Assembly: GCA_010909165.1 (NCBI GenBank)
Contig: MU008156.1
Span: 558,001-622,000, forward strand
DNA: 64,000 nucleotides
Direction of reading: 5' to 3'
Source of the DNA: Anthoceros angustus
Taxonomy: Eukaryota > Plantae > Anthocerotophyta
Position 1 is the stretch's first letter. Each line of letters opens with the position of its first letter. The notes beneath the pieces are model-generated. The model searched no databases, was not told the DNA's origin, and was given only the letters and a program-made list of their open reading frames with translations. The position numbers and the translations under genes are program-made. Shown here piece after piece: positions 2,116 through 50,807 of this stretch.

Positions 2116-3020
2116 ATGAACACGATCTGCGTCAAGATGTCGGAGCGGGAGCTGGAGCTGCAGCTGTCGAGGGTAATGGTGCCGGCAGCCTTCCACCGTT
2201 CCCGCCGCCGCGGCTGCTGCTGAAGTGAGGAGAGCGTGAGAAGGGCGGGAAGAAGTCCGAGTAATGTCAATACCCGGAACCCCAACGGATAGGAGGGCCC
2301 TGGGTAGCAAACCTAATGCCGTTCCTGATAGAAACGGCGACGGGGAGCTTAAACGGCAGCGGTTGTAAGGGAGTGCCGGTTATGGGAGAAATGCCATGGT
2401 TGCGGCCTGGACTCACCGTTTGCGATGGACAAGGAGCTGCACCTGGTTAGACAGCGCTTGATTGCTGCAGAAGTGGAAAGGAAAGATGCCTTGTACCAAC
2501 TCAGTCAGGTGAGGAAGGAGAAGGCCAGTGCTGATCTTGTGAAATTGTACATCAAGCACGCTAGCAATGCCATTGACAAAGAGAGGGATTTATGGGAGAG
2601 GGAAAAGAGCCTGTACAATGTGCGATGCGAAAAAGGTTTGTTCAGTCGTAGCTGATGCATGATGAATGTGTGCACTGTCCTCATAGCAAATCCTCCATTG
2701 TCATCCTAAATTTCAGTTCTGAAGTCGCTTGTAATTACGTTTTGACCAGTTCACAGATGAACGCTGGCCGGAATGCTCAGCCTTTCCTGCATTTAGAATT
2801 GTGGAGTGAGATGCATCGCAACTTATGAAAGTGCTTGTTTGATTTATCAGGCGCTGTACAAGTGAAACACTCATCCTCCCTCTGTTGGCTGCCTGAAAAG
2901 AACGAAAGCCTGAGCAGAAGTACTCCTTGCAGAAGAAAGGACGATGACTCTGATGCTTTCGATCGTGAGTGGCATAAAAGAAGAGAGCACCTTGACACGT
3001 TGATGAAGATGACTACATAG
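2116..3020 (+). CDS. Putative small coiled-coil protein of unknown function, head-to-head with CCT2
   Basis: Phase-compatible putative exons MNTICVKMSERELELQLSR|ELHLVRQRLIAAEVERKDALYQLSQVRKEK...CEK|...FDREWHKRREHLDTLMKMTT*; family not recognised. Confidence 0.4.
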
Positions 3021-3515
3021 CTCCCGTGGTCCTTGATTTTTCACATAATCTAGCGTCTTTATTTGAAGAAGATGCTGCTTAGGTTAGCAAGCTGAAAGAT
3101 GCTTTTATGGCACAATGTGGACAAGCGTCTTGACATAGCTATCTATACGTCAAGGGGACTTAGCTTCAGGTATAGTACCGTGTTGAAATTTCTCCAACTT
3201 TGTGTGTTCTCAAAGAAACGTGAATGCGATAGACTTGGCTGATTCTTGGCATGATCCAGGATTTGAGGCTCATCAGGGGCATTGCAAATGAAGCCAAGGA
3301 CCATACAGTATGAACGGGGACCCGTGCAACGGGACTGGTCCACCGTGGCCCGACGTGCATGGTGGGAAAGAGTCCACCTGGACGGGGTTTCCGGATTTCT
3401 TCCACTCAGCTGAAGGCAACAGGGGGCCTAAACCAGCCATCCTCCGAGCCCGAGAAGCTGTCGTGCGAAACCCAGGCCAATTGCGCGGTGAAGCCAAGGC
3501 TGGTGGGCTGTTGCA

Positions 3516-4418
3516 ATGTCGATGCAGGCTCTGGTAGGAGCTGCTTGTTGCCCTTGCAGAGCGTCCGGCAGCACGCGCCAGGCGTTGGCGTCGCAGTTTT
3601 TGGGATTTCGATCTGTGCCTTTGCATTCTGGTGGGACTTCATCGAGGATTCCGCGGACAGCGAGCCTGCGCGTTTGGGCGATGGAGAACAAGCGTGGTTG
3701 GTTCAACTTTGGGGGATTTGGGACGCGGGCAGTGTCGAAGGAGGCAGATTCTGCCAGTGCCAACCTCGCGCAGGGCCCAGATGACGATGTTCCGGCTGCA
3801 GGGCAGCAGTTTGCATGCTTCGGTGCCGGCTGTTTCTGGGGCGTGGAGCTTGCGTTCCAGCGGGTGCCGGGCGTGAGCAAGACCGAGGTTGGATACACCC
3901 AAGGTAAAGTGCACAATCCTACCTACGGCGATGTGTGCGAAGGGACTACCGGCCACTCGGAGGTCGTGCGCGTGCAGTTCGATCCCAAGGCGGTCAGCTA
4001 TGAGAGTCTGCTTGACGTTTTCTGGGCGCGGCATGATCCCACCACGCTCAATCGACAGGTGCTGTGCTCCCTCCATCCTTGAATGCAGTTAGATTGTTGA
4101 TTTCAAGTGTAGGGATTGAGCGTCCAGAATGCTGCGTGTCTCACAGTGCTAGGGTTACGTGTGCAGGGCGGGGATGTGGGCACGCAGTACAGGTCGGGAA
4201 TCTATTTCTACAGCCTTGAGCAAGAGCAAGCTGCCAAAGAGTCACTCGACAAGCATCAAAAATCTGTGAACAGGAAAATTGTCACAGAAGTACTCCCGGC
4301 CAAAAAGTTTTACAGGGCAGAGGAGTATCATCAGCAGTATTTGTCCAAGGGTGGCCGCTTCGGATTCAGGCAGTCGGCCGAGAAAGGGTGTAATGATCCT
4401 ATCCGCTGCTATGGTTGA
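3516..4418 (+). CDS. MSRA: Peptide methionine sulfoxide reductase A, plastid-targeted, 2 exons (intron ~4059-4167)
   Basis: GAGCFWG active site, HDPTTLNRQ|[24 protein letters not shown], plant C-terminus [10 protein letters not shown]; Ser/Arg/Ala-rich transit peptide. Confidence 0.96.
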
Positions 4419-4661
4419 CTTCTTGTTTTGTGAATGTTAAGGCCATCTCCGTCCTACGCCTGGGTCTCATAGAATCATGTCCAGTCAGCGTAGGCAGAAA
4501 GAATCCGACCACATCATCTACTGACTGGCGAGTATCGTAGCATAATGTTGTGTCCTGCGGGAAGTGGGATGAATCCGGTCTCTCTGCACATGTAAAGACC
4601 TATCCTGTCCACCGACACTTGCACTCTGAGCAAAAGCTTATTTTACAATCTCAGACGGGTG

Positions 4662-7600
4662 TCAGCTCCGATTCGCAACTCTGTTGATAGCTTTGTTGAC
4701 GTATTTTCGTAATCTCTTCAACTTCTCCGGTAAGACACTAGCTTCTCCAACATACGTTACGACGTTATTTATATACGTATCCAGATCGTGCTTGAACTGC
4801 TCCAAACCATGATAGTAATCATCTCTCAATCTTGCCCTCACCACAAGAATTGACAGGGGCAGCGCAGTTCTGTGTAACACATAGCACCCACAACCGGTCA
4901 ACCAAATTTGAGGTATCAGAAGAAAAGCATCCAGCTCCAGTTACAACGGACTCAATGCACCCATAAACTTTGAAGATTTCTGAACACTTACTTGTTCACA
5001 AAAGACGGCTGCAGAATTAAACTTTCCGCTTCCTGAAGACCGTATTCATCCTGCCCAACAGCTAGCTTTTAATTTTGATGTTGCCTACACAGGAATATCT
5101 TCAGAATATTGCGAGTGGCAAAACACACAAGCTATGACAACTAACCTCATCATCATAGTCAAAGGTTTGAAAAGCGTCCATGAGTTGCTCCCTGGTAATA
5201 GGATGTAGCCGAGGCCGGGGCCCGTCTAACTGAGGTGGAGGACCACCATCAGCTTTCTGACTTGATTCATACAACTCCCATGGGCTGTGATGTGTCACGT
5301 CCTCCGGCTTACCAACGGGTCTATACTGCACCTCGTACTTTTCCCAGGGGCTATCGGGAAAATCAGGAGACCTGGGCTTTATTCTTGTGATCCTGCCTTT
5401 CCACCATCCTCCGGTTCCCTTTTCACCCGGGTTTGCCCACCAGACCTGGCAATGATCCCTTGTTGCCCAAGGTTTCTTGATAGATGCCTCATACCGATGC
5501 TTCTCGACAATGAAATCTGGGAAGTTTTTCATCTCTGGATCTGGCAATGTAACCTGAAAAGTATCCCCATGAACCTCCGACATGGGGTCAATAAACTTCA
5601 TTAATATGCGACAGTGAGTTTCCTCTATATCCGGATGCAAGGTATAGTCCAGTCCCACAATCCGACAGAGCTCCACGGCATTAAACAATCCCCCAGATAC
5701 TGTCCAAGGTCTTTCAGCTCTTCTGAAGAATTCATCATTACAGCTATCCAGAAATGCTTCATGTCCCTGTACCAGGGACGGCAGGAAAGAGCACATTTAC
5801 AACACGTGCAAAGATACTGGAAGGATTGCAGGTGAGAAAACGCAGGAAAATATAGAGAACACATAACTACAAAAGACTTACCTGCCGAAAATATACCACC
5901 TCATCATTGAACTGAGGTACATAACGACTTCCTTCTTCTTTGGTAGAAAGCAACCAGGCATCCTCTCGTTTTCGCATTTTCCTCACACCCCGACCATGCT
6001 GCTCAGGTACATGGCCGACATCTTGTCTACCATTGAGATACTGACCAGCAGCATGCCTTGTGCGAGCAGAAGTCCTTCTACCTACCCTGGTACCATCTCC
6101 TAGATTTTGTACAATAGGTTCTGTATCTACATGGGGAAGTATGGAGTCCCTGTTCGTGCCCTTCAATCTCTGTCTCTGCTCCACCCTTCCTCGCCTCTTT
6201 CGCTCATTTTGATTATCAGAGATCCTCATTGATGCCCTCGCTGCATGCTGGCTTCCCGACAACAACATAGTCATTCTCCTCGTCCGCACCTTGTTCTCTG
6301 CTTCTGTGTGAGTCGTCACAGCAGCAAACCCCTCAGATCTCTGTTTTCTTCGCTTTCCATTTTGCCTACTCAAACCATTTCTAGGAGCGGCCCTTCCCAC
6401 CTTGAGATGTTGACCACCTGCGCCATGAAAATCTGGGTCAGAATACCCATTATCTTCACTTGCGGAAGCCACATTGTCCTCACTCGCTGAGGCACTTGCT
6501 CCCGTTGCCTCACTTGCAGAACCACAATTCTCTTCATCGACATGGCCTGATGCACTACATTTATATTCACTGTCATTCTCATTCTCTTCGTCATCACACT
6601 CACCCTCAGCTTCATCCTCATATTCCTCTTGCACCTGCTGTTCCCGTTTACCTTCCTCACCACTATGTTCTTCATCCACCTCAACTCTCCTTGAGGATTC
6701 CACCGGGCTGTCCTCTTCATCATCTTGACCATTTGCTGAATTGTATGTTGATTCACAGGCCTCAGCACCAGATTCATCCTCATTGGCATGGCCATTCGCA
6801 CCTTGAGTTTGCTGCCCACTGTCGGAGTCCGTACCCTGAGCACCCACATGATTTCCCTGTGAGACGGACATTAACCTTACGTGGCCATTGGTCAGCTTAG
6901 AGTTCTTCCCACATCCGAGGCAGATGACCCTGCTTCAGGTTCATGGTTTGGAGAATGCCTGGGAGGCGAGCTACTCTTGTACTCAGAGCTGTGATTTCCA
7001 ACCTCATGATCCCGAGCGACACCATTTGCATGAAGTGAACCACCACTCTTAGCTTGATCACCTGCCCTCCATCCCCAGAGGATTCGCAACGACATGTGCA
7101 CCCTGAGATTCATCTTCACTGTCTGGAAGCAACAAATTTCTCGCACGTCTGCGCAGATTCGAAACTGCTCCGTTCTGCCGTCTAAGACGGGTGGCTGCTG
7201 GCACTCTGGGGTCATCTGAGTTAGAAGGTGATCTGCTGATAAAGCTTGAGTTGTGGGCATCATCTTGAACGTCATTAGAATTGACAGCAATACCATTCCA
7301 TCCACTGACATTGCCTGCTGTTCCCGTTTACCTTCCTCACCACTATGTTCTTCATCCACCTCAACTCTCCTTGAGGATTCCACCGGGCTGTCCTCTTCAT
7401 CATCTTGACCATTTGCTGAATTGTATGTTGATTCACAGGCCTCAGCACCAGATTCATCCTCATTGGCATGGCCATTCGCACCTTGAGTTTGCTGCCCACT
7501 GTCGGAGTCCGTACCCTGAGCACCCACATGATTTCCCTGTGAGACGGACATTAACCTTACTCGTAAAACTCCGTTGCCATTGGTCAGCTTAGAGTTCTTC

Positions 7601-10600
7601 CCCACATCCGAGGCAGATGACCCTGCTTCAGGTTCATGGTTTGGAGAATGCCTGGGAGGCGAGCTACTCTTGTACTCAGAGCTGTGATTTCCAACCTCAT
7701 GATCCCGAGCGACACCATTTGCATGAAGTGAACCACCACTCTTAGCTTGATCACCTGCCCCTCCATCCCCAGAGGATTCGGCAACGACATGTGCACCCTG
7801 AGATTCATCTTCACTGTCTGGAAGCAACAAATTTCTCGCACGTCTGCGCAGATTCGTCGAAACTGCTCCGTTCTGCCGTCTAAGACGGGTGGCTGCTGGC
7901 ACTCTGGGGTCATCTGAGTTAGAAGGTGATCTGCTGATAAAGCTTGAGTTGTGGGCATCATCTTGAACGTCATTAGAATTGACAGCAATACCATTCCATC
8001 CACTGACATTGCCTGCTTGCCTATGATCACTCCACACAGGGAACTCATCAGCCATGCTAGCAGCATCTGCCTCCCCAGAAGACGAACCTAGTCGCACCCG
8101 CTTGGCAGCTTGACCCTTTTTCCACTCAAACTTCCTTTTCTCATCTAATGCCAAACCAGCATTAGCTTCATCCATATCACATACATCTGTGCTGTTAAGG
8201 GTAAGTGCATTTTCATTTAAATCAGCAGTCACCAAGGCATCATTACTCAGAAGCCCTTCCTTTAGGTCACTGCTGGATCTTGGATGCTTGAAAATAAGCT
8301 TTGGCAATGTGGATGATGCTTGGGTGGAAGGCTGCCCCCATATGTCTGCAACAGCAACTTCGTCCTTCAAGCCACTTTCACCTTCATGACCCATCTTCAT
8401 TGCTTCTTGACCAAAACCTGTTGACTTTGGTTTAAGCTTTAGCACCAGCCTCCTTCTATGGGATCTGGGTTTAGTGACCCTACAGAATTCGCCGAATTCT
8501 GACATGTTTTGTTTCAGAGCCAGGTCCTGCCCCTCACTCTGTTCCTGTGCATCAGATTCCTCTTTTTGTTTTCCTTTGTTGCGTAGAAGCCGGGTAGCAA
8601 ACTCTCCTTGCAATTCATCTGCTTTTTGTGCACTCCTGAGATTCCGTGTTGAGTGATCCACCCCATCTCCAGCTACCGACACTGGCTTATTGCCATTGGC
8701 GTCATCATCTTCGTTCTCATTCTCGTCATCATCATTCTCAACACCATTCTCATTATCATCATCGTTGTCATTATCGTCGTCGTCGTCAGATATGTTCTTG
8801 AAGAGGCGAAGTGCACGTTTTGCAGCCTTTCTCTTTGATCGAGGTGCATCCTGTTTTGTTGCCCCGGCAGATGAGGTTCCTGCAAATGTGGATCTTGACT
8901 GTCTTCCTTGTCCAGAGCGCCTTTCATAATGTTTCTCATACGGAAATTCCACCACCTTGTTACGACTCTTCCTCCTCAGCTTCCTTCTGACAGAAGTACA
9001 AACAGTATCCTGCAACAATGCAGCAGGGAATCAGCACGTGAACATCTGCGGAAATTCAACACACTTTCCATATATTTGCGCCAGCAGGATTTTCGAAATA
9101 ACACCTCTGCCTTTCTCTTGTTTCTCCTTGAGCGCCTGAGCTGAACCTCGTCTTCAGTATCTCCTGCCTCCTCTTCATTGTCCAGGCTTCTGAGACTTTC
9201 TGCATCGTCCTGACTCTCTCTGTCGTCGCTTACACTGTAGTCAGATCCATCCTCACTGCTCGCAGCAGCTTCTGGCTCCCAATCTACAACGTCATCAATG
9301 AAAACTGGAGGATCCGCTACCCTGCTCGCCCTCCGCTGAGGCTGTACCGCAATGCCTTCGCCAGCAATAATGCCATCATCTGTCATCCCGACTGCTAGCA
9401 TTACTGCAGGGGGCTCCCAAACCATGCCTATGGCCCCAAGACGTCGATGTTGATACAACGTCTGATAGGGGTCTGGATAAGGTATCATACCTGCAGCGGA
9501 GATATACTCAGGAGATTAGTAAGACCTCTCTGAGCATTAACTGGGAAGGAGAGACTAAATGCAATCACCTACTTGCATCACAAAGAAGATCTTGGATATT
9601 TCGTTCTTCTGGTGGCAGCTGTGTCTCCTGTCCACAAAAAAAAGAAAAGGAACTCGGAACCAAGCAACAAGCATTCTTCAAGCCAGTAATGGAAACTACC
9701 AGGCAAAAAAAAAGGTTCAGATTATGGCATTTAGTCACCTGGTCCAAAACATTGCCATAGCTGTCCCTCATAAGAGGTCGAAAATCGCCAAGAAAGAACT
9801 GTGGCAGCCCACACCAAGTAACAAATGGTTAGAACTTCCAAACACAAACCTGAAGATAATTCCAAGAATCAAGCAAAGCCAACCTGATCATATTTTCCAT
9901 CTTTCCAAGTGGTTTCTTCATCACCAATTGCAAACAGATGCATCTGCCCAACTTCATCAGAGACCACTAGGGAGGTCCCATCTCTGCAGCAACAATCAGA
10001 TGTCAATTATTTAACTGAGGACCCTCAGTCCGTTAGTACCCTAATGTACTCGATGTCACATTTTTCAACTAACCCACTTGGAACACTCACGGAGAGAAAT
10101 TGCCGTCAACCAATTCATAGTCTCCAGTCTCAAACTGTGTAATGGAAGAACCCTTCCAGATCTGAGTATCGAGTTCAAAGCAGGTGTCAGAAACAAACCT
10201 GGCCAGATTACAACCAAAAAAATTGACGGTTCAATCACTAGCCCATAGAAAGTGGTGCAAAACTTGCTACCAATTTGGTGAATCGTTGCACTTAAAACAT
10301 AATGAAACAGTGTTGAATGACAAGGAGCGTTATATACTATAATTCAATGCATGCTTTTTGTCTAGGTGGCACAGTTTGGTAGAGCTACTTACATCCCAGA
10401 TTATTACGCGGCCATCATATCCAGCACTCATTGCTATCCTTGGATCAAAAGGGTGAACATCCAACACAAAAGTCTGTACAGATTCACAAACAAGTTGATC
10501 AACTCTGCATGCATTCCACACATCGGTTTCAAAAAAAACCATCACTGGAAGAGATAAGCTCACCCACCGCTTTTGTGTGGCCTGTCAAGCAGTGGACGAG

Positions 10601-15609: not shown

Positions 15610-15950
15610 TCGAGCTTGAGTGTCAGAAGCCTATCCGGGCTTGTGTTAGAAGCCTATCCGGGCTTGTGTTAGAAGCCTATCTAGGCTTGAGGTTTAAAGA
15701 CCATTCGAACTTCAATGTTAGAAGCCTATATGAGCTTGAGTGTTAAAAGCTTATCCAGGCATGAGTGTGAGAGACCCATCCCAGCATCTAGAAGCCTATC
15801 TAGGCTTGAGGTTTAAAGACCATTCGAACTTCAATGTTAGAAGCCTATATGAGCTTGAGTCTTAAAAGTTCATCCAGGCATGAGTGTGAGAGACACATCC
15901 CAGCATTAGTGTTCGACGCATGTCCGGGGTTGAGTGTTAGAAATCCCCTT
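15610..15950. repeat. ~23-25-bp minisatellite with a 119-bp higher-order duplication
   Basis: Unit TGTTAGAAGCCTATCCGGGCTTGAG with internal AAGCC..GGCTT palindrome; block starting at 15670 recurs at 15789. Confidence 0.9.
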
Positions 15951-18499: not shown

Positions 18500-20060
18500 T
18501 GCCGTGCGTGAGAACATAACACATATGCATCAAGGCCGATGATGCAAGAGACCGGCGCGACCTCAAACGTGGTTCACGAATCACAACAATTTCGATCGCG
18601 TCGGCTACCAGCCTGAAGGAATCACAGCAACTTTGATCGAGTCGCGCTACAGCCTTGAAATTCTCCTGCAGGATGAGGCAGGTGAAAACTGTAGCAAGCT
18701 ATGCCGGCGCATTCGCCTCCTCACATGACGCTCTTGGGTAGGCCATTTCCCTTCCCTTGTTTCGCACGGTGTTGGGCAAGTTGTCAGAACACGGGCTTTT
18801 ACGGTTTACTTGCCTGCAGTCCGCCCGCGGACTGTCTCCATCGCGAATTTGACGCCCAAAGCGGAAGAAACGTGAAGCGAGTCCGGCCGCGGTTCCGGTG
18901 CTCACTTGCCAGCCTTGTGAATGATTGCCAGCCCTGGATCTGTTCAGAAGACTTGGCAAATCCGCAAACATAATTCCGACATCAATGTTGAAAATTCCAA
19001 TTGCCAGTGGCCCTCACAGGTGAGCCTCAAACCCTTGGTCATCAGACAAGGAGCTCCTTATGTGCGGTTGGCCTTGCCTTGCTATCTTGAAGTGAAGAGG
19101 ATGTCTCAACCGCGGAACGCTAACAGCTTCCTCATCAGTTTCTGCTAAGCTGTCCACGAGCGGGGCTTGATTGCTCTGGCTTCCAAATGATGATGAGTGC
19201 GTCCTTGCAGAACCTAAATTTCTGAAACCGCTCAAACAGCTCATCTTCCTTGTCTTCATCATCATCGCCCAAGAGGAGGGAGGACAAGTAGCGGACCCTA
19301 CCATCGATGATCCTGCAGGCGTCCCATCAAATTACATGCAGAGGGAGTACCTTGAAGAAGTTGGGACAAGGAATTCGTCTTCCTGGAATCAACGTGTGAA
19401 TTGCCCTATCCGCCGGTCCTAAGATGTAGTGATGCATGTAAGGAATTGCTCACTGGCCGGCATGGCATCATCGTCTCCAGAAAACAGAAGACATTTGCTG
19501 GAAGTTCTTCTTGCCAGCCCACTCAAACTCTGAACTGAGCCTCTTGATGAAGAGCCTCCACATTCGTTGAGATCCTGAGATGACATTCCCTGAGCGTTGT
19601 CCATGTTCTCAGTAGCAGGGAACTCAAATGATCAGTCTTGCAGGAGTGATCAAGGTGATCACTCATGTTCAAGGTTGCTGTCCAAGGTTTATCAACGATA
19701 GTGCATGCACCTAATTACCTTGTCTTCCTGGTAGAGGAAGATTTAAGTAGCTTCACGGGGAAGATCAACAATGAGGCTCAAGAAACATGCACGACATAAC
19801 ACACACATGGTTTGACATGGGGCTTAACTTCCCTTACTTGATGTTGGCCCCAAGACTCGGCTTCTTCTCTTGCAATGGCCGAGAGCCTACTGCGTCGGAA
19901 AGCTTATCCTAATGAAATCCGAGATGCAGCAAGTGGTTGGTCATCCTGCATCAATCTTATACACGTTGCTCTTAAAATTGTTCCTGCCAACAATCTTCAT
20001 CCAAGACAGTTTCAAGAGTCTGACGCCTTACTACAGGCAGGCACGGGGAGGTACCAAACG
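18500..20060 (-). pseudogene. Partial, internally deleted copy A of the FAM21 gene
   Basis: 19700-20060 resembles 30380-30735; 19014-19600 resembles 28225-28880; 18500-18990 resembles the 3' flank at 27940-28200; frameshifts present. Confidence 0.9.
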
Positions 20061-20545
20061 ACGCACATTCAAGACTGACCATTACATCGATATCAGACAT
20101 CCGGCTCAGCGAATCGGGGATTCGGCTCGCTCAACTGGCGACTCCATTCAGCATCTCGACTCACAAGGGCTCGTGCCGAAGCAAGGCCTCTGAGACTAGA
20201 CTGTATCATCTGCTCTTCCTCCTACAAGGACCCAAACCTTTACAGGCTGCGAGTACTATCTCCCAACCAGGCTTGAAGCCAGGTGCACACATTGCGAAGG
20301 ATTTTACATCACCAACAAAGCCAAATGAATAGGTATTAAAAAAAATTCATGACGGCAACTCTAGCTGGTTATATCGTGCAGTGGGGATCAGATAATTCAC
20401 AAGGTAAGATATATATACACTACCAGATTAGTTAATATAAAAATTTGTTTTATTTATATTACATAAAATTATCAAAAGTAAAATATTTATTACCACACCT
20501 TTATTTCTTACCAAGTCTGAGAGATGTCCTCTATGTCGTCCACAC
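20060..20545 (-). promoter_or_regulatory. Leader plus TATA/AT-rich block shared by both duplicated modules (second copy ~24970-25425)
   Basis: Colinear similarity between the two copies; tatatata at ~20408-20417; not present at the equivalent point of the parent FAM21 gene. Promoter role is inferred. Confidence 0.45.
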
Positions 20546-20750
20546 CGGCCCACTTTGCCCATGGTATGGTAGTACATTATAGTCGAGAGGTTTCCAACGC
20601 CGGCCCGGTTTGCTCATCGGAGTACATCATAGTTGAAAGGTCTGCAACCCGGCCCGCTTTGCCCATGGTTGTACATCATAGTTGAGAGGTTTGCAACCCG
20701 GCCCGCTTTGCCAAAGGTTGTACATCATAGTTGAGAGGTTCCCAACCCGA
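20545..20750. repeat. Four ~49-bp tandem repeats
   Basis: Unit ccggcccgctttgcccatggttgtacatcatagttgagaggtttgcaac; absent from the homologous site at ~25422. Confidence 0.92.
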
Positions 20751-20834
20751 CTCATCGCACTTGGAAGCGTTTCTTGTCGAGGTCGCTATTATTGCCACTC
20801 CCCTCAGGGCAGTAGATAGCCGTAGGGAATCCTT

Positions 20835-21690
20835 GATTGTTGGGCACCTACTTACTTAGGTACTCCTTGTCCTTGTGGCGGTGCTTAGACGTCAGAAGTT
20901 TAAGTTGCTCACCTGTGTACAGTACAGCTTGCTCGGGAATGTACTCACTCTGTCGTTGGGCGGTGCTTAGTTGTCAAAAGTTTACGTTGCTCACCTACTT
21001 TCTTTTAAGTACTTCTTGTCCTTGCAGCGGGGCTTAGTTGTCACAAGTTTACGTTACTCACCTACACATGCTTAAGTACACCTTGTCCTTGCGGCGGTGC
21101 TCAAGTGTCACAAGTTTACGTTGCCACAAGTTTATGTTACCCGTCCTTGTGGTGATGCTTAGTTGTCACAGGTTTGCAGTTGAAGTTTACGTTGCCAAAA
21201 TTTAAGTTGCCGAGAAGTTTCCGTTGCTCTACTCAATGGGGCATGTTCTCATATGTCCTTGTGGCGGTGCTTAGTTGTCTCAACTTCACGGTGCTCACCT
21301 ACTTGTTGAGTACTTTTCGTCCTTATGGCGCCGCGTGCTTGAGTGTCAAGAGATTTGCTTTGCTCACCTACCTATGTACTTGCTTGAGTACTCCTTGTCG
21401 TTGTGGCAGTGCTTAGTTGTCAGAAGTTTACGTTGCACACCAGCTTGCTTGCAAGCTGGTGACTCCTCTGTCTTGTCCTTGAGTTGCAATGATGCTTAGC
21501 TATCACAAGTTAACGTCGCTTACTTGCTTGGTTGGGTACTCCTCCATCCGGTCCCTGAGTTGTGGTGGTACCACTTAGGTGTCACAAGTTTACGTCTCTC
21601 ACTTGCTTGGTTGGGTACTCCTCATCACTGTGCTGTGATGGTGCTTAGCTGTCACAAGTTTACTTGCTTGTCAGTTGTTCTCAGTTGTAG
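20835..21690. repeat. Degenerate ~60-70-bp tandem array, roughly a dozen units
   Basis: Consensus approximately CTCACCTACTTGCTTGAGTACTCCTTGTCCTTGTGGCGGTGCTTAGTTGTCACAAGTTTACGTTG. Confidence 0.92.
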
Positions 21691-21754
21691 TTTACATTGA
21701 GCAACATCTTTTGGTCCTCCAAGGTCGGGAACCTGAACCTGACGCCATGTAGCT

Positions 21755-22265: not shown

Positions 22266-22620
22266 ATGGAGGAGGTTTCGGTGCAGTGTCACATGCCCCT
22301 AGGAGGTTGCATTGGGGCGGGTTGTGGAGGGGGCACTTCAAGAACATATCTATCCTTTGGTGGCCCTCAATGCTGAGGTTCTGCCTCATGGCGGCTTCTT
22401 TCTTGAGAAAGCTACAACGAGGGGGAACACCAGCAGAGAGGGGTGTGAGGTGATGAGAGATCTCATCATTGACGGCCCAACTCCGAGAAAAGACAATAGG
22501 CAGTGCGAGGAGAGACCCCGGGACGCGGTGGAGACGAGGCTGAAGAGGCCCGCTGAGCAGCAAATAAGAAGCTCGTTGGAGAGTCAAAGCTCCCCCAACT
22601 GCCGTAGTGGCCCTGCCACA
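22266..22620 (+). other. Unidentified intronless coding-like segment with a probable early frameshift
   Basis: TATTTAA at ~22231, ATG at 22266 (MEEVSVQCHMP), then open frame ..GRVVEGALQEHIYPLVALNAEVLPHGGFFLEKA..; family not recognised. Confidence 0.3.
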
Positions 22621-22621
22621 G

Positions 22622-22854
22622 GTGGATGCGCCTCCGGAGCATCGGAGGCTGATCGTAGAGGCCACCAGGAGGAGCCGTGGACGGAAGACGGTGACCGTTG
22701 TCAACGGTCTGCAGCTGCGGCTGGAGTCCAGGGATGCTCTGTGTATGTAAGCAGCTCAAGACCAAGGAGGGTAGCGGCGGCTCTGCCAAGGACCGACAAG
22801 CTGATGAACGAGCTCGGGCAGCCGGGATACAGGGCCAAGAAGTCAGGAAGGTGA
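22622..22854 (+). pseudogene. YciH/SUI1 (bacterial/cyanobacterial-type eIF1 family) exon, frameshifted
   Basis: Joining three frames gives VDAPPEHRRLIVEATRRSRGRKTVTVVNGLQLRLESRDALC/KQLKTKEGSGGSAKD/TDKLMNELGQPGYRAKKSGR*, matching the YciH pattern; the IEIQGD motif is deleted; preceded by a cag acceptor. Confidence 0.8.
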
Positions 22855-22949: not shown

Positions 22950-23412
22950 ATAAAGCTTGCGTGCAAATAAATTGCTGAAGGACGTTGGAAACCAGTACCT
23001 AATTGACCTGCCAGTGTACAGTTCAGGATGGTATGTGTTCGAACAAACCCAGGCCTAGCCGATGATACACACACCTGTAGCAGACTTGTGAGATATCGTG
23101 AAACCTCCAGAATCCGAAGCCATATATCACCAACCTCTCCGAAAAAACTGGAGAGGAGCCAGCAATACCGCCGTCTGCATCTGCATGTACGAGGCCAGTG
23201 TAAAACACACCAGCAGCAATCAATGAAGAGTGCTGTCAATCTGATCATTCAGTTCCACATTAACTGTGCAGAAAGCAAAACTTTCAGGATAGAGAGGGAC
23301 CGCGAAGAGCGTCCTCAGCATAGCCTTGAAGTCAAGAGCAACGGATACAGCTGGTTCCAAACGTTCTACCTCCATTCGCAACCACTTTTCTCTAACAACA
23401 TGCCATGTTGAC
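22950..23412 (-). pseudogene. FAM21-derived fragment C
   Basis: Resembles 30775-31230 including intron sequence; encodes LEPAVSVALDFKAML as in the parent gene. Confidence 0.9.
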
Positions 23413-23414
23413 AT

Positions 23415-23590
23415 CCATATCGCAGCGGGTGGAGGCTGTGGCACATGCATTGAACGGCTGGGACAAGGAGCATCGCTGCGGCCATGCCCTTCTTGGAATG
23501 ATGATACAGGCCTGGAAGAGTGGCAGCCCGACCATGACCCGGAAGCAGCTCCTGTCTGGGTGCAAAACCATCTTCGTGGCCGGCCACTAT
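23415..23590 (+). pseudogene. Cytochrome P450 fragment (helix H-I region, CYP72-clan-like)
   Basis: GHALLGMMIQAWKSGSPTMTRKQLLSGCKTIFVAGH resembles the GxDLLGxxL...L.DECKTFFFAGHET motif. Confidence 0.65.
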
Positions 23591-23709: not shown

Positions 23710-23782
23710 GGGGGAGTAGCTCAAATGGTAGAGCGCCCGTTTCGCATACGGGAGGTAACGGGATCGATGCCCGTCTTCTCCA
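23710..23782 (+). tRNA. tRNA-Ala (CGC)
   Basis: 73-nt cloverleaf, G3:U70 alanine identity pair, anticodon arm CCCGT-TTCGCAT-ACGGG, T-run at ~23792. Confidence 0.95.
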
Positions 23783-24154: not shown

Positions 24155-24970
24155 GATGAACAAGAGCCCCCAAGTCCGTTGAGATCCTGAGATGACATTC
24201 CCTGAACGTTGTCCATCATTCAGCACCTCGTGGTGTCTGCAAGAGAAGGAGCTTACTCAGAGTCCAACTGGACAGGAGTGTCTTGGTAGCAGCTTGTTCA
24301 ACTTTTCTAGGATATCTTAAAAGGCTTGTCTATAACTGATGAACAAGAGCCCCCAAGTCCGTTGAGATCCTGAGATGACATTCCCTGAACGTTGTCCATC
24401 ATTCAGCACCTCGTGGTGTCTGCAAGAGAAGGAGCTTACTCAGAGTCCAACTGGACAGGAGTGTCTTGGTAGCAGCGTGTTCAACTTTTCTAGGATATCT
24501 TAAAAGGCTTGTCCATAACTGATCCACACAGTCCTGGAGGCCTCTAACCGTAATCAAGGTGATGTAAACGGTTGCTGTTCAAGGTTCATCAACGGCAATG
24601 CAATTGGTTACCTTTATCTTCCCGGTTAAGAGGAAGATTTGTAGCTTCACGGGGAGGGTAAACAATGAGGCTTCAGAAGAGAACACATCTATGGTTTGAC
24701 ATGGGGCTAAAAACCTCATTCACTTGATGGTGGTCCCAAGACTCTGCATCTTCGGACTCTGCATCTTCGTCTTGCAACGGCCGGAAGCCTTCTGGATCGG
24801 GAAGCATATCCTCACTCGTAGTTGCAACAACTGCTTGTTTATCCTTCATCAATCTTATACACCGTATTTTTGTGATGACCCTGTTCTTAAAAATGTTCCT
24901 CCAACAATCTTCATTCAAGACAATTTTAAGAGTCTTAGCGTCTTACAACAGGCAGGCACGGGAAGGTACC
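24155..24970 (-). pseudogene. Partial FAM21 copy B, containing a 183-bp tandem duplication at 24155-24523
   Basis: 24560-24970 resembles 30370-30735 and 19670-20060; the block at 24155 recurs at 24338. Confidence 0.9.
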
Positions 24971-25629
24971 AAACGACTCACAAACGTTATAACTGACCAT
25001 TAATTCAGACATCCGGATCAGCGAATTGGACATCCGGCTCGCTCAACTGGCAACTCCGTTCAGCATGTCGACGCACACGGGCTCATTCCGGAGCAAGGCT
25101 TCCGAAACTATATCATCTGCCCTTCCTCTTAGATGGACCCAAACCATCCAGGCTTGAAACTAGGTGCAAACATTGCAAAGGATGCTACATCACGAACAAA
25201 AGCCAAATAAATAAGTACCTATTTAAAATTGTGTCATAGGCAATACTAGCTGGTTATATACCTAGTGTAGTGCATATCAAAATAATCTATATAGGGTAAT
25301 ATATACACTGGCAGATTAATCATCAAGACCTTTTTCTGTAAATAATAAAATTATCAAAGTAATTATATTAATTATCACTGTTTGTTTCTTACCAAGTCTT
25401 AGCAATCTTTTATGTCCTCCACCGGCTTCTCGACTTGGAAGCGTTTTTGTCCGGGGCTGCTATTATCACCCACTTTCGATCTCACTGCCGTAAGTAGTCA
25501 TAGAAAATCCCCAATTGTATGTTTGTTATATACTACCCACTTTCCTCATGGCAAAAGATAGTCGGAGGGAATCCTTGATTGTTGTGCACCTACTTGTTTG
25601 GGTACCTACATACTTGGGTACTCGTCTTA

Positions 25630-26191
25630 GTCCCCAACGTGGAGTATCGCCCTGAGCAAAACGGCGGAGCTATGGCAACGGTGAGGGTCCTACCGGTCCT
25701 CGTGGCCTTACGACATTGCGCTGTTCAAGGTCGACGTGTGAACGTGCTAGGACCACATCGTCGCCGAGAATCGTGTTTGCAAGAAGTTGGTCGCAATGGT
25801 CAACAGGTTGGGGTACAATGCACATTTTGATCCTAACGACTTCACGGTTTCCAACATTGTGCTGGATGCTGAAGTACTTAAAGATAAATATAGATACGCA
25901 ATCGATTTGGTAGAGATTCACGCAACCCTAGCTGAAGATATGAGCCGGCTCAGGCTGAAACAATTGCACCTCGACATACCAGCATTGAGAGGGTTCAGTG
26001 GGTTGATAGCGAAGTTCGAAGACAGCAACTTGGCCGTCACTATGTTCCATTCAGGACACCTCCACACCTCTAGAGGAAGGACTATTGCACCGTCGTACGA
26101 AGTTTTTGAACAGCGATATCCCATCCTATTGGCACACCAAATGAAAAGAACGGTAACCAACTCCGCGTCAGGGACGGTAATAGTAGTTTGA
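25630..26191 (+). pseudogene. Highly diverged, intronless TATA-binding-protein (TBP)-like sequence, 5'-truncated and frameshifted
   Basis: PNVEYRPE..IALFK/GRRVNVLG../VCKKLVAMVNRLGYNAHF..DFTVSNIV..IDL..FSGLIAKFEDSNLAVTMFHSGHL..YEVFEQRYPIL follows the TBP core NAEYNP..ALIFSSGKMVCTG..ARKYARIIQKLGF.AKF.DFKIQNIV..IRL..FPGLIYRM..VLLIFVSGK..YEAFENIYPIL. Confidence 0.82.
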
Positions 26192-26235
26192 GGTCGTAAG
26201 AGAAAGCGGTCATAGTAGCGAACTACTTTCATGAG

Positions 26236-26497
26236 TGTTGCTTAGCTGTCACAATTTATACACATTACCAAAAAAAAGTATATGTTGTTCTAGTATGTAC
26301 TCCTATGTCCTTTTCCTTGTGGCGGTGCATAGTTGTCAAAAGTTTATTTTACTCACATTCTTAATCGTGAGAAGTTTGCGTTACTCACATACTTAATTGT
26401 CAGAAGTGCGTTGCTCGCCAATGTACTTGCTTGAGTGCTCCTCGTCCTTGTGGTTGTGCTTAGTTGTCACAAGTTTACACTACTCACATGCTTAATT
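26236..26497. repeat. Continuation of the ~65-bp repeat family after the TBP-like insert
   Basis: gtccttgtggttgtgcttagttgtcacaagtttac and related units match 20835-21690. Confidence 0.88.
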
Positions 26498-27250
26498 GTA
26501 TCATGCCGTGTGACATTAATCTCTGCACTTGGGTTTAGTGTTTGATTAGCATTAATTGATCTAATTACTTATCTTTAAGTAAGTTATTAATAATTAATTA
26601 ATCTAAAGTGCTTATGTTAATTAAGCGTTGTATAGTGTTAATTAAAAATGGTTAGCAATAGCTAAGTTGGTAAGCACAAATAATATGCTTTAGCATATTC
26701 CTTGCATATTATAGTGTATTCTTAGGATATTTCCGGCATATGCTAATGCCAATAGGATATCTTAGGAATATGCCGATGCCAAGGGCTAGTATATATAAAC
26801 CCTTTCACAGTGGACAAGCTTAGATCTAAGCTTGTCCTCTAAATATGCAATGCAAGATTGTTGTGAGGAGGCCAAAGCTATCACTCCGAGAGCGATATGT
26901 GAGGAATTTGCTTGTTGTTCTCGTGGCAAGGGGACGAAGAGCCCTGGCAGCTCGAGCATATTCACCTGCTAGGCCTAACAATTTGCAGCGCCACAGGTTT
27001 GCCGCATTTCCTGATGCTTGTTCCATCCATCGCGCGGATTCCGCACGAGCCTTGGAAGCATGCAAAGCCTTCTCTTGGAGAGATGCCCAATCGCCGATTC
27101 GAAAATGTCGGAAAGGGCTTGTAACCTCCCGATGGCCAAAAGCCCCAACCCTGGTACAACGCAAACACCACCGAGGGAGAAGCAGAAGGAGACACCAGGC
27201 CAAGTCATCGTGAGAGTTAAGCATAAGGTGATCCAGAGAAAGACAAAATG
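26497..27250 (+). mobile_element. Possible LTR-like fragment truncating the array
   Basis: Abrupt TG start within a repeat unit, AT-rich U3-like tract, TATATAA at ~26792; no partner LTR, PBS or TSD found. Confidence 0.25.
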
Positions 27251-27758: not shown

Positions 27759-27842
27759 TCCGACTTGCCGGATTCGAACCAGCGACCTAAGGATACCTGC
27801 ATACGCTACAGTCCTCCGCTCTACCAACTGAGCTAAAGTCGG
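27759..27842 (-). tRNA. tRNA-Tyr (GTA) with an 11-nt intron (27795-27805)
   Basis: CCGACTTTAGCTCAGTTGGTAGAGCGGAGGACTGTAG[CGTATGCAGGT]ATCCTTAGGTCGCTGGTTCGAATCCGGCAAGTCGGA, typical of plant nuclear tRNA-Tyr. Confidence 0.97.
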
Positions 27843-28224
27843 ATGATACAAACATTGCAAATTTATTTTTAATTATTTGCTTAACAGGGACCATGTGATT
27901 TAATCCCCTTTTATTTCTGTGTCGCGATGATGGCCAACATGCTGCGTACACATACATGTGTCAAGGCCTGCATACATAGATGCATCAAGTTTGGCAGTGT
28001 CTGAAGATGCCAATAGACCGCCGATGTCAAAAGTGCAGTGAGTCACAACAATTAACGATGGCACCGGGGCGCACAATTCTCAGATGTTACACCAGTCACA
28101 ACATTTTCGATCGCATCGCCACAAGGATGGCCCCTACAGCACTCGCAGACTTGGCAAATCCGCAGACATAATTCCGACACCAATGTAGAAGTACAAGAGG
28201 CAAGGGGCCTCACAGCTCAAACCT

Positions 28225-31200
28225 CTAGTCATCAAACAAGGAGCTCCGTGGCTGTTCCGGCCTTGCCTTGTCGTCATGAAGCGACGAGGACGGTCTCAAG
28301 CGTGGGACGCCAACAGCTTCCACATCAGCTCTGCCAATCGTGTTGCTACTCCCAACACTATCAGCACTACCGGCCCTGTCCACGACGGGGGTTTGATTGC
28401 TCTGGCTTCCAAACAATGAAGAGTGCGTCCTTGCAGGACCTTTCTGAAACCTCCCGAACAGCTCATCTTCGTTGTCTTCATCATCATCGCCGAAGAGAAG
28501 GGACGATATGTAAGCGGACCCTATCGTCGATGATCCTACAGCCATCCGTGCCCGTTGCCTTGGCCCCTCCTCCGAAGTTGTTGCTGGCAGCCCGGCAGTC
28601 CTGTCCATCTCCTCATCCAGATTACTTACAGAGAGAGAACTGAGAAGAGGTTGGGGCAAGGAGTTCGTCCTCCTGAAATCCATGTGCGAAGCCCTGTTCG
28701 GTGGTCCTACGATGCTGTCAGGCTTGCCCACCAGGAAGGCATCCTCATCCTCGTCCTCATCATCTCCAAAACCTAGGGGCGTTTTCCCGGAAGTTCCTCG
28801 AGCGAGCCCATTCAAGCTCTGAACTGAGCCTCTTGATGAAGGGCGTCCAAGTTCGTTGAGATCCTGCGATGACATCCCCTGAGCTGCTCGGTGGTCACTG
28901 GAAGTTGCACGTCTCAAAGTGGTACTCCCATCTGAAGACAAAGATGGGCTCAAAGATGCCGCTCTTGCATGGAGTGCTGTACCTGAATAGACATCAACGT
29001 GGTATTACAAACAGTCTGGGGAAAAGTATTAGGAAACATTACGAGATCCATTTGATAGCCAATACATACCTTTGTTTTTGAAATCCTCTTCCTTGCTGGA
29101 ATTATTCCTGTCCAATTCCTTTCGAGGTGATGTTTCAAGATAGCCTGGCCTAGGAGCATTAGTCTTCTTTGCCCTGCAGAAGAAAATGTGAGTGACCTTA
29201 TATGCGGGAACATGCCTGCATTCCTAGACACGAAGTCACAAAGCACAAACTTACCTCGACATATTTGAGGAAGCAGTTTCGCCAATTTCCAGCTGATCGA
29301 GTGAGGGTGCGTGCCGATGTAGACTCTGTTTCTCCTTTCCCCTGCTTGACCATGAGAGTGACTCGTCTTCAGAATCAACAAGCTGCTCCTTTTTGCTGAC
29401 GGTCAAAAGAGCTGCTGAATTGTACTGCACGGAAGGCAGTTCATCACGCTCCGAGACCACTTGGCCATCCGTTGACAACACCCTCATGTCCTCCAAATCA
29501 CCTGCGGCACCCAACCCTTCGGATACACTTAGCTCATCCTGATCCTTTAGAGCAGGCGTTGTCTCATCACTTTCATCAAATAATCCCCGGCCTGCACCAA
29601 TTTTGCTCCAAGACCTGAAACTCTTGCTCCGGTTGGTAATGGTGGACCTCTGTTTGATGAGCTGAGAAATGTAGCTGTCGTCCTCATCTTCATCCTCATC
29701 AAATAGACCCCCGCGAAGCTCTTGCTTGACGGCGGGGTTAGGCAACACAGATGCTGTCTTTTTGAATCTCCCAGCAGTGTAAGAGATGGCAGGTGGTAGG
29801 TTGTTGGTTGTCAAGGCAGTTGGTTGCACCTGGGCTGAGACCTCTCTCCTTGGTAAAGAGTCATGAAGCGAGCCCTTTATGTATGAGAACTTGCCAGAAA
29901 AGCTACCAGGTTTTTGTAACTGGTGGCCATGTCCGAAGAGCTCGTCTGGTACTGTGGGTCCTGTGCTACTCCCACGCACGTCTGTCTGCTCCACTGACTC
30001 TGAAGAATCTGGTACAGAACCTGGAGAAACTCCTGGCAAGGAAATTGGAGGAGGATCCGCTACCTTAGGTTGACCAGTGGATTGAGCCTCCGGGTTCCTA
30101 CCAGCATGTGGAATTGGAATAGGCTCTTTTTCATCTCCCAAGGTGGCGTTTTCCATCATGCCACTAGCAGCGAACTCAAATTCAGAATCACTCCTAGCAC
30201 CTTCAGCATCCTGTGGTGTCTGCAAGAAAACGTGCTATGTTCAGAGTCCAGTCCCCAGAAGCTATCACCAAGTCAACCATATCGTAATATCTTAAAGGCT
30301 TCTCTGTCTGACGGCACAGTCCCAAAGACCTCTAACCACTAAACAACGAGAACCTAAACCAGATTGATGATCAAGGTTCATTCAACGATACCGCAACTAA
30401 TTACATTATCTTCCTGGTAGAGGAAGATCTGTAGCGTCACGAGCAGGGTCAACAATGAGGCTTGAGAGACATGAACAAAAGAAAACACACATGGTCTAAC
30501 AAGGGGCTTAACCTCATTTACTTGATGTTGGTCCCAAGACTGTGCACCTTCTTCTTGCAATGGCCGGAAGCCTACTGGATGGGCGAGCATATCCTCTTCC
30601 CAAGTTGCAGCAACTGATTGGTCATCTTCCTCAATCTTATACTCCCTGTTCTCAAACATGTTCCTGCCAACAATCTTCATTCAAGACAGTTTCAAGACGC
30701 CTTTACAACAGGCACCCACGGAAAGGTACCGAACGACTGACAAACTTCAACAGCCACCTTTCAGGAAAGTGATACTTGCATGCAAATAAACTCCCACAGG
30801 ATGTTGGAAACGACTAATGGACCTGTAAATTCTCAAGGTGTATGCAGACAGTATATGCAGACAAACCCAGGCAAAGCAGATAAAACACACACCTATCAGA
30901 GTTCTGAGATATCTTGGAACCGCCAGAATCCGAAGGCACATTGCCGACCTCGCCGAAAAAATTGGGAGACCCACCAACATCTGGGACAGAGCCGTCTCCA
31001 TCTGCAAACAGAAGGCCAGAGTAAAACACACCACCAGCAGTCAATTAAGAGTGCTGCCAATCTGATCATGCAGTACCACATTATCTCTGTGGAAGGCAAA
31101 ACTCACAGAACAGAGAGGGACCGCGAAGAGCAGCCTCAAGCATAGCTTTGAAGTCAAGGGCAGCTGATACAGCTGGTTCCAACCCTTCTGCCTGCATTCA

Positions 31201-32405
31201 CATCCACTGTTTTCTATAGCAACATGCCTTGTTTCCATGCATGTGCCGATGTCGAATTTCAAATTACACCCGACAGTATACCTGGACTTCGGAGAAATCT
31301 GACCACTCTCCGTCAGGCATGTCTGCAGCCATGTCTCCAGTCAAATCTGCCTCATCGATCTCAATGTCACTTCCCGCCGCAGAGATGGGCTCAAAGGGCT
31401 TATGCTTCCGTAGTTCTGGATTCAGAATGCACAGTTAAATCCTTAAGACAGTAACTAGGAGTTTCCAGGTCTGTTCTGCAACTAACCAAGGAAAGAACTG
31501 CATGGTAAGCTGCAACACAAAAAAATGCTGGTTGGAATGAAAAACACCTGCTAGGCCACAGTTCACATCCTTCAAGAACTCGTCTGTTCCAATGATAAAA
31601 GGAAGAGGACGACGCGCCTGAATAGCATCGTAAGACACAGATTTCAGCCGTTTGGAAGAAAAGGCTTTGTGCCTGAGCACGCAGTAAGCATAAACACTTC
31701 GGAGGCAACAACTGGTACAATGAAATTAACATACAAAAACGACCTTTCCAGCAATGACTTTGTCAACTTCTGTCGAAATTGAATGCCTGCTGTCCAGCTT
31801 CTGATCCTTGAAAACTCCCCATGCAGTTAACACTGCTTCCTTGTAACGAGGCACAATGCCACCTTCATAGCCGTCTGCTACTGTTTCGGCTTCCTTCTGG
31901 GCCGCTGGCGCCAGCACATGTTCTGAGGTCTCATCCTCCTCATACACACGCTGTAAAAAAGCATCCACAGTGAGAACCTACTCCTTTTCATGCCCCGGAA
32001 TCACCAAGCTTGAACTCTCTGGTACTCACGTTCTCAATGAATTGGGAGTTCGAAAGTCCTCGAAGGAAATTAAGCGTGTTGTGCAGATCCTGCTCTACAG
32101 ACGTAGTTTCCTCCACCAGTTCGTGGAGTCGCTCCGCAACACTGTCGGTCCTCCGTTCTAACCCATGGGAGAAGCCTTGGAGCCACTCCTGCAGCTGCAA
32201 CCGATAAATGCAGCCCCCGTCAGCACCCAGACCCGATGGATCCCCGCGTATCCGAAAGAATCAAACAATGCGAGCCACACCCGCAGATCCCAACAACCCT
32301 AGCGACTTCTACCACCGCCCATCACAGCACCTGAATATCAGACTGGAGGGTCCACTCCGACGCTGCTGCCTCCGAGAAGATGGCCTTCAGCGACTCCCGC
32401 TCCAT
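28225..32405 (-). CDS. WASHC2: WASH complex subunit 2 (FAM21) homologue, multi-exon
   Basis: MERESLKAIFSEAAASEWTLQSDIQ|LQLQEWLQGFSHGLERRT..LHNTLNFLRGLSNSQFIEN|RVYEEDE and RPLPFIIGTDEFL match the FAM21 head domain; disordered tail with LF-acidic motifs (GGLFDEDEDED, GLFDESDE, LLFGDDDEDNEDELFG, SSLFDD*). Confidence 0.88.
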
Positions 32406-50790: not shown

Positions 50791-50807
50791 ACATATATAG
50801 GTTTGAA

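What the first reader, a model, noticed from the sequence alone, without database searches (positions are those of the whole stretch)
25630..26235. Highly diverged, intronless TBP-like gene embedded inside a tandem-repeat array
Seen: the ~65-bp array starts at ~25580, breaks off, about 600 bp of TBP-like coding sequence follows, and the array resumes at 26236. The homologous module at 20835 has an uninterrupted array. The sequence covers the second half of TBP repeat 1 (frameshifted) and all of repeat 2 (open), with insertions (KDKYR; MSRLRLKQLHLDI). Known: land-plant TBP cores are extremely conserved and their genes are intron-rich, while nucleocytoplasmic large DNA viruses encode divergent intronless TBPs. 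Inference: substitutions are extensive but largely conservative and repeat 2 stays open, so most divergence probably happened under selection before decay. The source could be a giant virus, a large mobile element, or an undescribed TBP-related factor family in this lineage.
Basis: partly seen in the sequence, partly recalled or inferred. Interest (0 to 1): 0.8.

Follow-up and report, generated by a model that had tools for sequence, protein, structure and literature searches.

The report
Multi-copy divergent TBP in bryophyte genome
This 0.56-kb stretch is a broken, front-truncated piece of a very divergent gene for TATA-binding protein (the factor that marks where transcription starts); it likely has tens of near-identical copies in this moss-grade plant, so it is likely cargo of a mobile element that would use its own version of the factor to switch on its genes.

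Summary
25631-26190 (+) is intronless and TBP-derived: the only hit of a TBP profile among 2445 window ORFs (E 4.6e-6), 18-33% identical to 145 TBPs. It interrupts a ~67-bp array that is unbroken in the sister module.
New: in a run of the same organism, 114 contigs, 97 of them at least 90% alike, pile on exactly this segment (depth 245-4556 in most bins against 6-14 on the flanks). One extends the TBP frame 5' of the junction. So this is a dead fragment of a multi-copy family, younger than the module duplication, and the array is only its landing site. Conservative substitutions, codon-position bias and undepleted CpG favour divergence under selection. Correction: the 'MSRLRLKQLHLDI insertion' is probably partly the wrong frame.
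The donor is unresolved. Sampled viral TBPs match worse than cellular ones, the tree rejects no origin, and no viral or transposase gene lies nearby. The parent element was not found because no genome is held. Earlier scan notes report TBPs in animal Polintons, none in plants.

The parts
25631..26190 (+). 5'-truncated, frameshifted fragment of a divergent intronless TBP-like gene; member of a likely multi-copy family
   Evidence: homology 25636-26146; high depth from the bin 25621-25647 to about 26160
25633..25692 (+). Piece of TBP repeat 1 (stirrup NVEYRP and the following strand); the DNA-intercalating Phe of this loop is replaced by Asn
   Evidence: 11.6 bits; 0 of 3000 shuffles reach it
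25693..25777 (+). Damaged stretch of repeat 1 with at least two frameshifts; its frame could not be fixed
   Evidence: (motif tests p 0.20 and 0.38); no contig laid at 25702-25755
25751..26191 (+). Stop-to-stop open frame, 146 codons: last helix of repeat 1, linker and repeat 2, with the KDKYR insert; keeps Asn of the NIV motif and both repeat-2 Phe
25939..25953 (+). YEPAQ in another frame, likely the true repeat-2 TFIIB-binding stirrup (first Glu kept, second replaced), followed by an insert of about 13 residues
   Evidence: indels at 25932 and 25934 in high-depth contigs
25567..25630 (+). Start of the ~67-bp array, one degenerate unit, left of the insert
   Evidence: 84% to 20795-20863
26233..26497 (+). 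Array resumed, about 4 degenerate units; single-copy depth up to about 26420
26498..27020 (+). Separate very high-copy, LTR-like repeat that cuts the array
   Evidence: depth up to 19286; different flanks before 26501-26522; 'LTR-like' is my inference from a TG-like start and a TATA box
20826..21700 (+). Sister array with no insert (the empty site)
24562..25422 (-). Decayed partial copy, introns included, of the host gene at about 28.0-32.4 kb, plus a segment shared with the sister module 19665-20543
   Evidence: 71.7% over 933 columns; 71-78% to the parent gene; 80% in ungapped columns
18949..20543 (-). Sister module: decayed partial copy of the same host gene

Best explanation
The segment is a broken, 5'-truncated fragment of a divergent TBP-like gene that likely belongs to a multi-copy mobile element of this bryophyte-grade genome, and it was likely pasted into an already existing tandem array; the intact gene would encode the element's own TATA-binding protein. 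Shown: TBP homology, no introns, the breaks, the empty sister array, and many 90-99% alike contigs on exactly this segment. Inferred steps: (1) an ancestral eukaryotic TBP, donor unknown, became intronless and was taken up by a mobile element; (2) it then diverged to about 28% identity under protein-level constraint, keeping the hydrophobic core, both repeat-2 Phe and the NIV Asn while changing the TFIIB-binding stirrup and one repeat-1 Phe; (3) the element spread to tens of copies or more; (4) after the two modules had diverged by about 20%, some 600 bp of one copy entered the array of the second module, most likely during break repair or template switching, as there is no poly(A), no terminal inverted repeat and no clear target duplication; (5) this copy gained frameshifts and is dead. 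Predicted function of intact copies: binding a TATA-like box in the element and directing host RNA polymerase II to it, outside normal host control, as proposed for viral TBPs.
For: Homology. Multi-copy: run X1 is the same organism (893-bp contig with 1 mismatch and 2 gaps, depth 13.5); 114 contigs laid on 791 bases, 14/27/56/17 at 99+/95-99/90-95/under 90% alike; depth 245-4556 in 17 of the 21 bins from 25621 to 26187, against 6-8 at 26188-26330 and 0 at 25540-25620. One contig continues 5' of 25631 with Leu-His in register with the TBP motif LH..N.EY (read by eye; 8 letters, one contig). Another shares the KDK.RY insert, so the divergence predates amplification. Constraint: against 2000 neutral simulations on each of 3 cellular TBP coding sequences, mismatches are more conservative (p 0.003-0.006), hydrophobic core columns are kept (39 of 50; p 0.010-0.013), identity is higher at conserved columns (21 of 54 against 13 of 68; p 0.017-0.023), and 105 stop-free codons have p 0.02-0.03. 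Codon-position bias fits the TBP frame (p 0.0003 and 0.0007); CpG o/e is 1.03 against a window median of 0.62, reached by 1 of 114 tiles. Timing: modules are 72-80% alike while family copies are mostly 90% or more alike. Earlier, unchecked notes describe several cargo-carrying transposons in this genome.
Against: The parent element was never seen: no genome is held, and no transposase, RT or viral hit appears among 80 ORFs at 15.9-30.2 kb. The tool warns that summed contig depth is not copy number and may include other organisms; one run only. The longer variant contigs also carry frameshifting indels (1-nt and 4-nt losses at 26018 and 26114), so no intact copy is shown and part of the family spread or decayed without selection. 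The tests are not independent, use an alignment fitted to the profile, leave out indels, and use non-plant templates. Nothing here tests DNA binding or expression. No relative was found among 1.84 billion representatives, so the family cannot be studied from outside.
Confidence: 0.5

Rival explanations
1. It is an old processed pseudogene of the host TBP that decayed neutrally and was later carried around as a non-coding passenger of a repeat family.
For: Intronless and in sense orientation. Plant TBPs give the highest mean score. The plant-constrained tree is not rejected (p-AU 0.62) and was 2.8 log units better than the quick free tree. Other copies are also broken.
Against: Conservative substitutions, kept core and no stops on the TBP path; strong codon-position bias and no CpG loss, unlike the neighbouring decayed gene copies (CpG o/e 0.66-0.78). 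About 70% protein divergence without these signs of decay is hard to get neutrally.
Confidence: 0.17
2. It comes from an endogenous DNA virus or virus-like element (giant virus, or a Polinton/adintovirus-like element) that encodes its own TBP and left many copies. This differs from the best explanation in donor and element type, not in how the protein would work.
For: Viral TBPs are divergent and often lose the TFIIB-binding glutamates (PMC7221094, passages). TBP-like genes are labelled in adinto-like virus maps (10.1101/697771, two legends). CpG is undepleted. The viral grouping is not rejected. Earlier notes report TBPs in animal Polintons (unchecked).
Against: The 20 viral or viral-like TBPs score 31-68, against up to 89 for cellular ones. 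BFVD structural matches named as TBP or TFIID are 6-17% identical, against 23-27% for the top eukaryotic TBP chains. IMG/VR scans found no relative. No viral gene lies nearby. My viral sample is small, was seeded on conserved motifs, and holds no Polinton TBP.
Confidence: 0.2
3. It is a fragment of an expanded host family of TBP-related factors (TRF-like, for example for sperm or sporophyte promoters).
For: Signs of selection; eukaryote-type linker and C-terminal helix. Animals have such paralogues (established knowledge).
Against: Tens of copies, many with indels, fit a repeat family better than a host gene family. No relative was found in other plants, although liverwort and moss proteins are in the collection.
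Confidence: 0.08
4. The high depth comes from another organism in the run (symbiont, virus, contaminant), and the window copy is a lone horizontal insert.
For: One run only; the tool's own warning on depth.
Against: A single foreign genome would give one long contig, not 114 short ones with graded identity. A single-copy-depth contig joins the 3' end of the segment to the array flank (record 26137-26330, depth 7.6).
Confidence: 0.05

Closest known systems
Cellular eukaryotic TBP (Pfam PF00352; PDB 3oc3, 1qn3, 5fur)
   Same: Collinear from the repeat-1 stirrup to the C-terminal helix; eukaryote-type linker; keeps NIV Asn, both repeat-2 Phe, SG, and the YPxL helix end.
   Different: 18-33% identity; below the Pfam cut-off; inserts of about 5 and 13 residues; repeat-1 Phe lost; second stirrup Glu lost; no introns; truncated; likely multi-copy.
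Giant-virus (Nucleocytoviricota) TBPs (PMC7221094, passages read)
   Same: Intronless, fast-evolving, altered TFIIB-binding positions; would work as an orthogonal initiation factor.
   Different: Sequence is closer to cellular TBPs than to the viral ones sampled; no viral neighbours and no TFIIB-like gene seen in the 80 ORFs scanned; occurs as many near-identical copies.
TBP-like genes of Polinton/adinto-like (MELD) elements (10.1101/697771, two figure legends read; earlier scan notes, unchecked)
   Same: A divergent TBP carried by a multi-copy mobile element.
   Different: Those are in animals or unassigned non-animal data sets; no Polinton hallmark gene was seen here; I had no Polinton TBP to compare.
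TBP-related factors (TRF/TBPL; recalled, plus listing PMC7755920)
   Same: Divergent TBP paralogue.
   Different: Those are low-copy host genes far closer to TBP; my searches listed none for plants.

Membership tests
TBP family (PF00352) | Significant profile match, collinear over the TBP repeats | tested here: met
   E 4.6e-6 with own profile; 41.3 bits against null maximum 15.5; Pfam E 0.0019 but 18.4 bits, under the 22.9 cut-off
TBP family (PF00352) | TBP fold | tested here: inconclusive
   With a TBP alignment: pLDDT 78, top VIA match TBP, Z 11.2, rmsd 5.6, 110 aligned, which is circular. Alone: pLDDT 46, no TBP match
Functional canonical TBP | Two complete repeats in one frame | tested here: not met
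   First ~28 core residues missing and at least 2 frameshifts in this copy
Functional canonical TBP | Four DNA-intercalating Phe (role recalled) | tested here: not met
   Both repeat-2 Phe kept; first repeat-1 Phe is Asn; the other lies in the damaged stretch and is unresolved
Functional canonical TBP | Two stirrup Glu that bind TFIIB (C.L3.2, C.L3.4; PMC7221094) | tested here: not met
   Open frame has Ile and Ala; the other-frame YEPAQ keeps the first Glu only
Giant-virus TBP | Groups with viral TBPs | tested here: inconclusive
   End branch 3.8 changes per column; plant (p-AU 0.62), fungal (0.45) and viral placements all unrejected; 34 of 145 references used; the 55-row tree was saturated
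Giant-virus TBP | Viral hallmark genes or viral TFIIB in the flanks | tested here: not met
   No such Pfam hit in 80 ORFs at 15.9-30.2 kb; this tests only this displaced fragment, not the parent copies
Polinton/adinto-like element | pPolB, integrase, capsid, ATPase, terminal inverted repeats | not testable with these tools
   No genome held; none near this fragment
Transposon cargo gene | Many near-identical dispersed copies | tested here: met
   114 contigs, 97 at 90% or more, with high summed depth; depth is only a proxy and dispersal is inferred from low depth on the flanks
Transposon cargo gene | Lies inside element boundaries with a transposase or RT | not testable with these tools
   Parent copies could not be read (contigs on the segment are 241 bases or shorter among those listed)
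Processed pseudogene of host TBP | Poly(A) tail and target-site duplication | tested here: inconclusive
   No poly(A) at the 3' junction; a 5-base match on both sides is also part of every array unit
Processed pseudogene of host TBP | Neutral pattern of change | tested here: not met

The most novel reading that the evidence does not exclude
A still unrecognised high-copy mobile element of a hornwort-like land plant, either a cargo transposon or a Polinton-like virus, encodes its own orthogonal TATA-binding protein with a remodelled TFIIB-binding loop, which lets it start transcription of its genes outside host control; intact copies exist in this genome. My ten paper searches listed no such case in land plants.
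Probability: 0.4. Interest if true: 0.78.

Novelty: new variant of a known kind. Interest (0 to 1): 0.52.

Why it matters
Plant TBP is among the most conserved proteins, and my searches listed no divergent plant paralogue or plant element with its own TBP. If intact copies exist, a land-plant mobile element carries a piece of the basal transcription machinery, as giant viruses and Polinton-like elements do. That would be a new way for plant transposons to escape host control, and one genome-wide search for this 560-bp probe would expose the element. The copy in this window is dead and has no likely function.

Tried and rejected
No whole genome is held. No relative of the 146-aa ORF: word-indexed search (0 of 18 candidates), HMMER over 1.84 billion representatives (0 at E 1e-3), exact look-up (0 of 8 proteins, 6 of them starts of this ORF), IMG/VR, phages (7 hits at E 3-10, chance). 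The one hit in prokaryote genomes, L136, is not a TBP (0.6 bits on the profile; peptidase-like by recall). ESM Atlas gave only unnamed clusters at 0.89-0.92, most with Streptophyta members, and no TBP family; a lead at most, as the HMMER search found no such relatives. Single-sequence fold: low confidence, no match. No RNA holder listed; run X2 laid 2 contigs, neither on the TBP segment; no evidence on expression either way. The gap in cover at 25702-25755 may mark private damage or assembly error, but a hole proves nothing. dN/dS among copies could not be computed, as the tool gives only short loose ends. The only metagenome scan went to collecting reference TBPs, so metagenomes were not searched for the element. 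No convincing terminal inverted repeats at 15.3-28.1 kb (25 longest of 66 pairs seen). Rfam found only 2 tRNAs at 15-33 kb. Rejected: the 3' region of an LTR element (array plus TBP plus LTR), because the array between them has single-copy depth and other LTR-like copies have different 5' flanks. Window versus X1 contigs differ by gaps more than by mismatches (0/2, 0/1, 1/2, 1/8), so some frameshifts may be assembly errors or strain differences. Earlier findings by sequence and near this place: none. Papers: passages only of PMC7221094, 10.1101/697771, PMC7027989 (no 'TBP' or 'virus' in its main text) and PMC10952607; listings only for the rest; no supplements seen, and hornwort repeat libraries in supplements may bear on novelty.

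Full report
Setting. The window holds intron-rich plant genes. Its plastid pyruvate dehydrogenase E1-beta region is 97% identical to an unnamed EukProt transcript, 94% to Marchantia and Sphagnum, 92% to Physcomitrium and 86-87% to Selaginella. The host is therefore bryophyte-grade; a hornwort is likely but not shown (an earlier unchecked note says the same). No whole genome is held.

Observation. The frame 25751-26191 is open for 146 codons. It hits only Pfam TBP (E 0.0019, 18.4 bits, under the 22.9 cut-off), and 22 of 23 PDB matches are named TBP/TFIID. I collected reference TBPs from viral and metagenome contigs and by a protein search. A profile of 134 of them hits 1 of 2445 window ORFs, E 4.6e-6. 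A frameshift-aware alignment covers 25636-26146 at 41.3 bits; 26 other window stretches reach 15.5 at most, 20 shuffles 15.2. The first 28 or so core residues are missing, repeat 1 has at least two frameshifts, and there is no intron. Identity to 145 TBPs is 18-33% over 122 columns. A model built with a TBP alignment folds as TBP (pLDDT 78; Z 11.2, rmsd 5.6, 110 aligned), but that is circular; the single-sequence model is uninformative.

A correction. The best match to the repeat-2 YEPEL motif is YEPAQ in another frame at 25939-25953: 10.9 bits against 0.5 for the open frame, shuffle p 0.001, picked after seeing it. High-depth contigs lack a base at 25932 (707 of 1410 depth) and at 25934 (120 of 910). 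So the open frame probably hides two compensating frameshifts, and the 'MSRLRLKQLHLDI insertion' is probably in part a wrong-frame reading. An insert of about 13 residues before the Phe remains on either path.

Surroundings. Two modules (18949-21700 and 24155-26497) each hold a decayed partial copy, introns included, of the host gene at about 28.0-32.4 kb, followed by a ~67-bp array. They are 72% alike by BLAST and 80% in ungapped columns. The first array is unbroken; the second has one degenerate unit, the insert, about four units, and then a separate very high-copy LTR-like repeat from 26498. I saw no poly(A), no terminal inverted repeat and no clear target duplication. None of 80 ORFs at 15.9-30.2 kb hits a transposase, RT or viral family.

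Copy number. Run X1 is the same organism: an 893-base contig matches with 1 mismatch and 2 gaps at depth 13.5. On 25540-26330, 114 contigs were laid, 97 of them at least 90% alike. Summed depth is 245-4556 in 17 of the 21 bins from 25621 to 26187; the other four are 0, 0, 10 (25702-25782) and 31 (last bin). It is 6-8 on the right flank and 0 on the left. The tool warns that this is no copy number, but the contrast points to tens of copies or more, limited to the TBP segment. One contig continues 5' of 25631 with Leu-His in register with the TBP motif, so this copy is truncated; another shares the KDK.RY insert, so the divergence is older than the amplification. Against my reading, the longer variant contigs carry frameshifting indels too, and no intact copy is shown. 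Since family copies are closer to each other than the modules are, the insert is younger than the module duplication.

Selection. Against 2000 neutral simulations on each of three cellular TBP coding sequences, mismatches are more conservative (p 0.003-0.006), 39 of 50 hydrophobic core columns stay hydrophobic (p 0.010-0.013), conserved columns are more often identical (21 of 54 against 13 of 68; p 0.017-0.023), and 105 stop-free codons have p 0.02-0.03; the share of positive-scoring mismatches is borderline (p 0.04-0.06). These tests are not independent and rest on a fitted alignment. Codon-position bias supports the TBP frame (p 0.0003, 0.0007), and CpG o/e is 1.03 against a window median of 0.62. 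In a hornwort, high-copy long TEs tend to be heavily methylated while about half of TEs have little methylation (PMC10952607, passages), so undepleted CpG suggests a young or unmethylated source but does not name it.

Donor. Pairwise scores favour cellular TBPs (means: 10 plant 79.5, 115 other cellular 70.0, 20 viral or viral-like 46.7; the 'viral-like' label for eight unnamed proteins and the plant label for one are mine), but slow-evolving sequences always score best against a long branch. The 55-row tree was saturated. In the 35-row tree, which used 34 of 145 references, the end branch is 3.8 and plant, fungal and viral placements are all unrejected. No relative exists in the databases searched.

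Mechanism. This copy is dead. The family's intact gene, if it survives, would encode a TBP that keeps both repeat-2 Phe and the NIV Asn but has lost one repeat-1 Phe and at least one of the two TFIIB-binding Glu. Viral TBPs show the same trend and are proposed to act as orthogonal initiation factors (PMC7221094, passages). I therefore favour an element-encoded factor that directs polymerase II to the element's own promoters (0.5), over a virus-like donor element (0.2), a passively carried pseudogene (0.17), a host TRF-like family (0.08) or a foreign source of the depth (0.05). All functional steps are inferred.

Known kinds. Divergent TBPs are known in giant viruses and are labelled in adinto-like virus maps (10.1101/697771, two legends); earlier unchecked notes report them in animal Polintons. 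Ten paper searches listed no plant element with a TBP and no divergent plant paralogue; the library lacks most subscription papers and I saw no supplements. I rate it a new variant of a known kind, interest 0.52: the lead is real and cheap to follow, but the element itself was not seen.

Noticed in passing
window 28000-32400 (-): Intron-containing host gene with repeated LF-acidic motifs, by recall like WASH-complex FAM21/WASHC2 (Pfam and PDB gave no support). At least three decayed partial copies lie upstream: 18949-20062, 22956-23418, 24402-24985.
   Followed up: partly
window 26498-27020 (+): Very high-copy LTR-like repeat (depth up to 19286 in run X1) inserted into the array; no coding domain found behind it.
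   Followed up: partly
window 20566-20749 and 15611-15942: Two further short tandem arrays (49-bp and 23-25/119-bp units); the 49-bp array is present in the first module only.
   Followed up: no
window 22568-22747 (+): Weak SUI1/eIF1 match (E 0.013) beside a 183-codon open frame at 22303-22851; possibly another captured gene fragment.
   Followed up: no
window 23710-23782 (+), 27759-27842 (-), 51814-51885 (-): tRNA-Ala, an intron-containing tRNA (likely Tyr) and tRNA-Gln; two of them flank the second module.
   Followed up: no
window 6634-8017 and 24155-24523: Near-perfect tandem duplications: about 700 bp (97%) inside a coding exon of a WD40/bromodomain-like gene (name recalled), and 183 bp (98%), which shows double depth in run X1 and so looks real.
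   Followed up: partly
window 50450-50960: Imperfect inverted and direct repeats (74-84%) with partial copies at 49788-49995.
   Followed up: no
L001:42-1907: IMG/VR contig with a cellular-like TBP tail to tail with a major-capsid-like gene (capsid label recalled); about 50% identical to eukaryotic TBPs, unusually high for a viral TBP.
   Followed up: no
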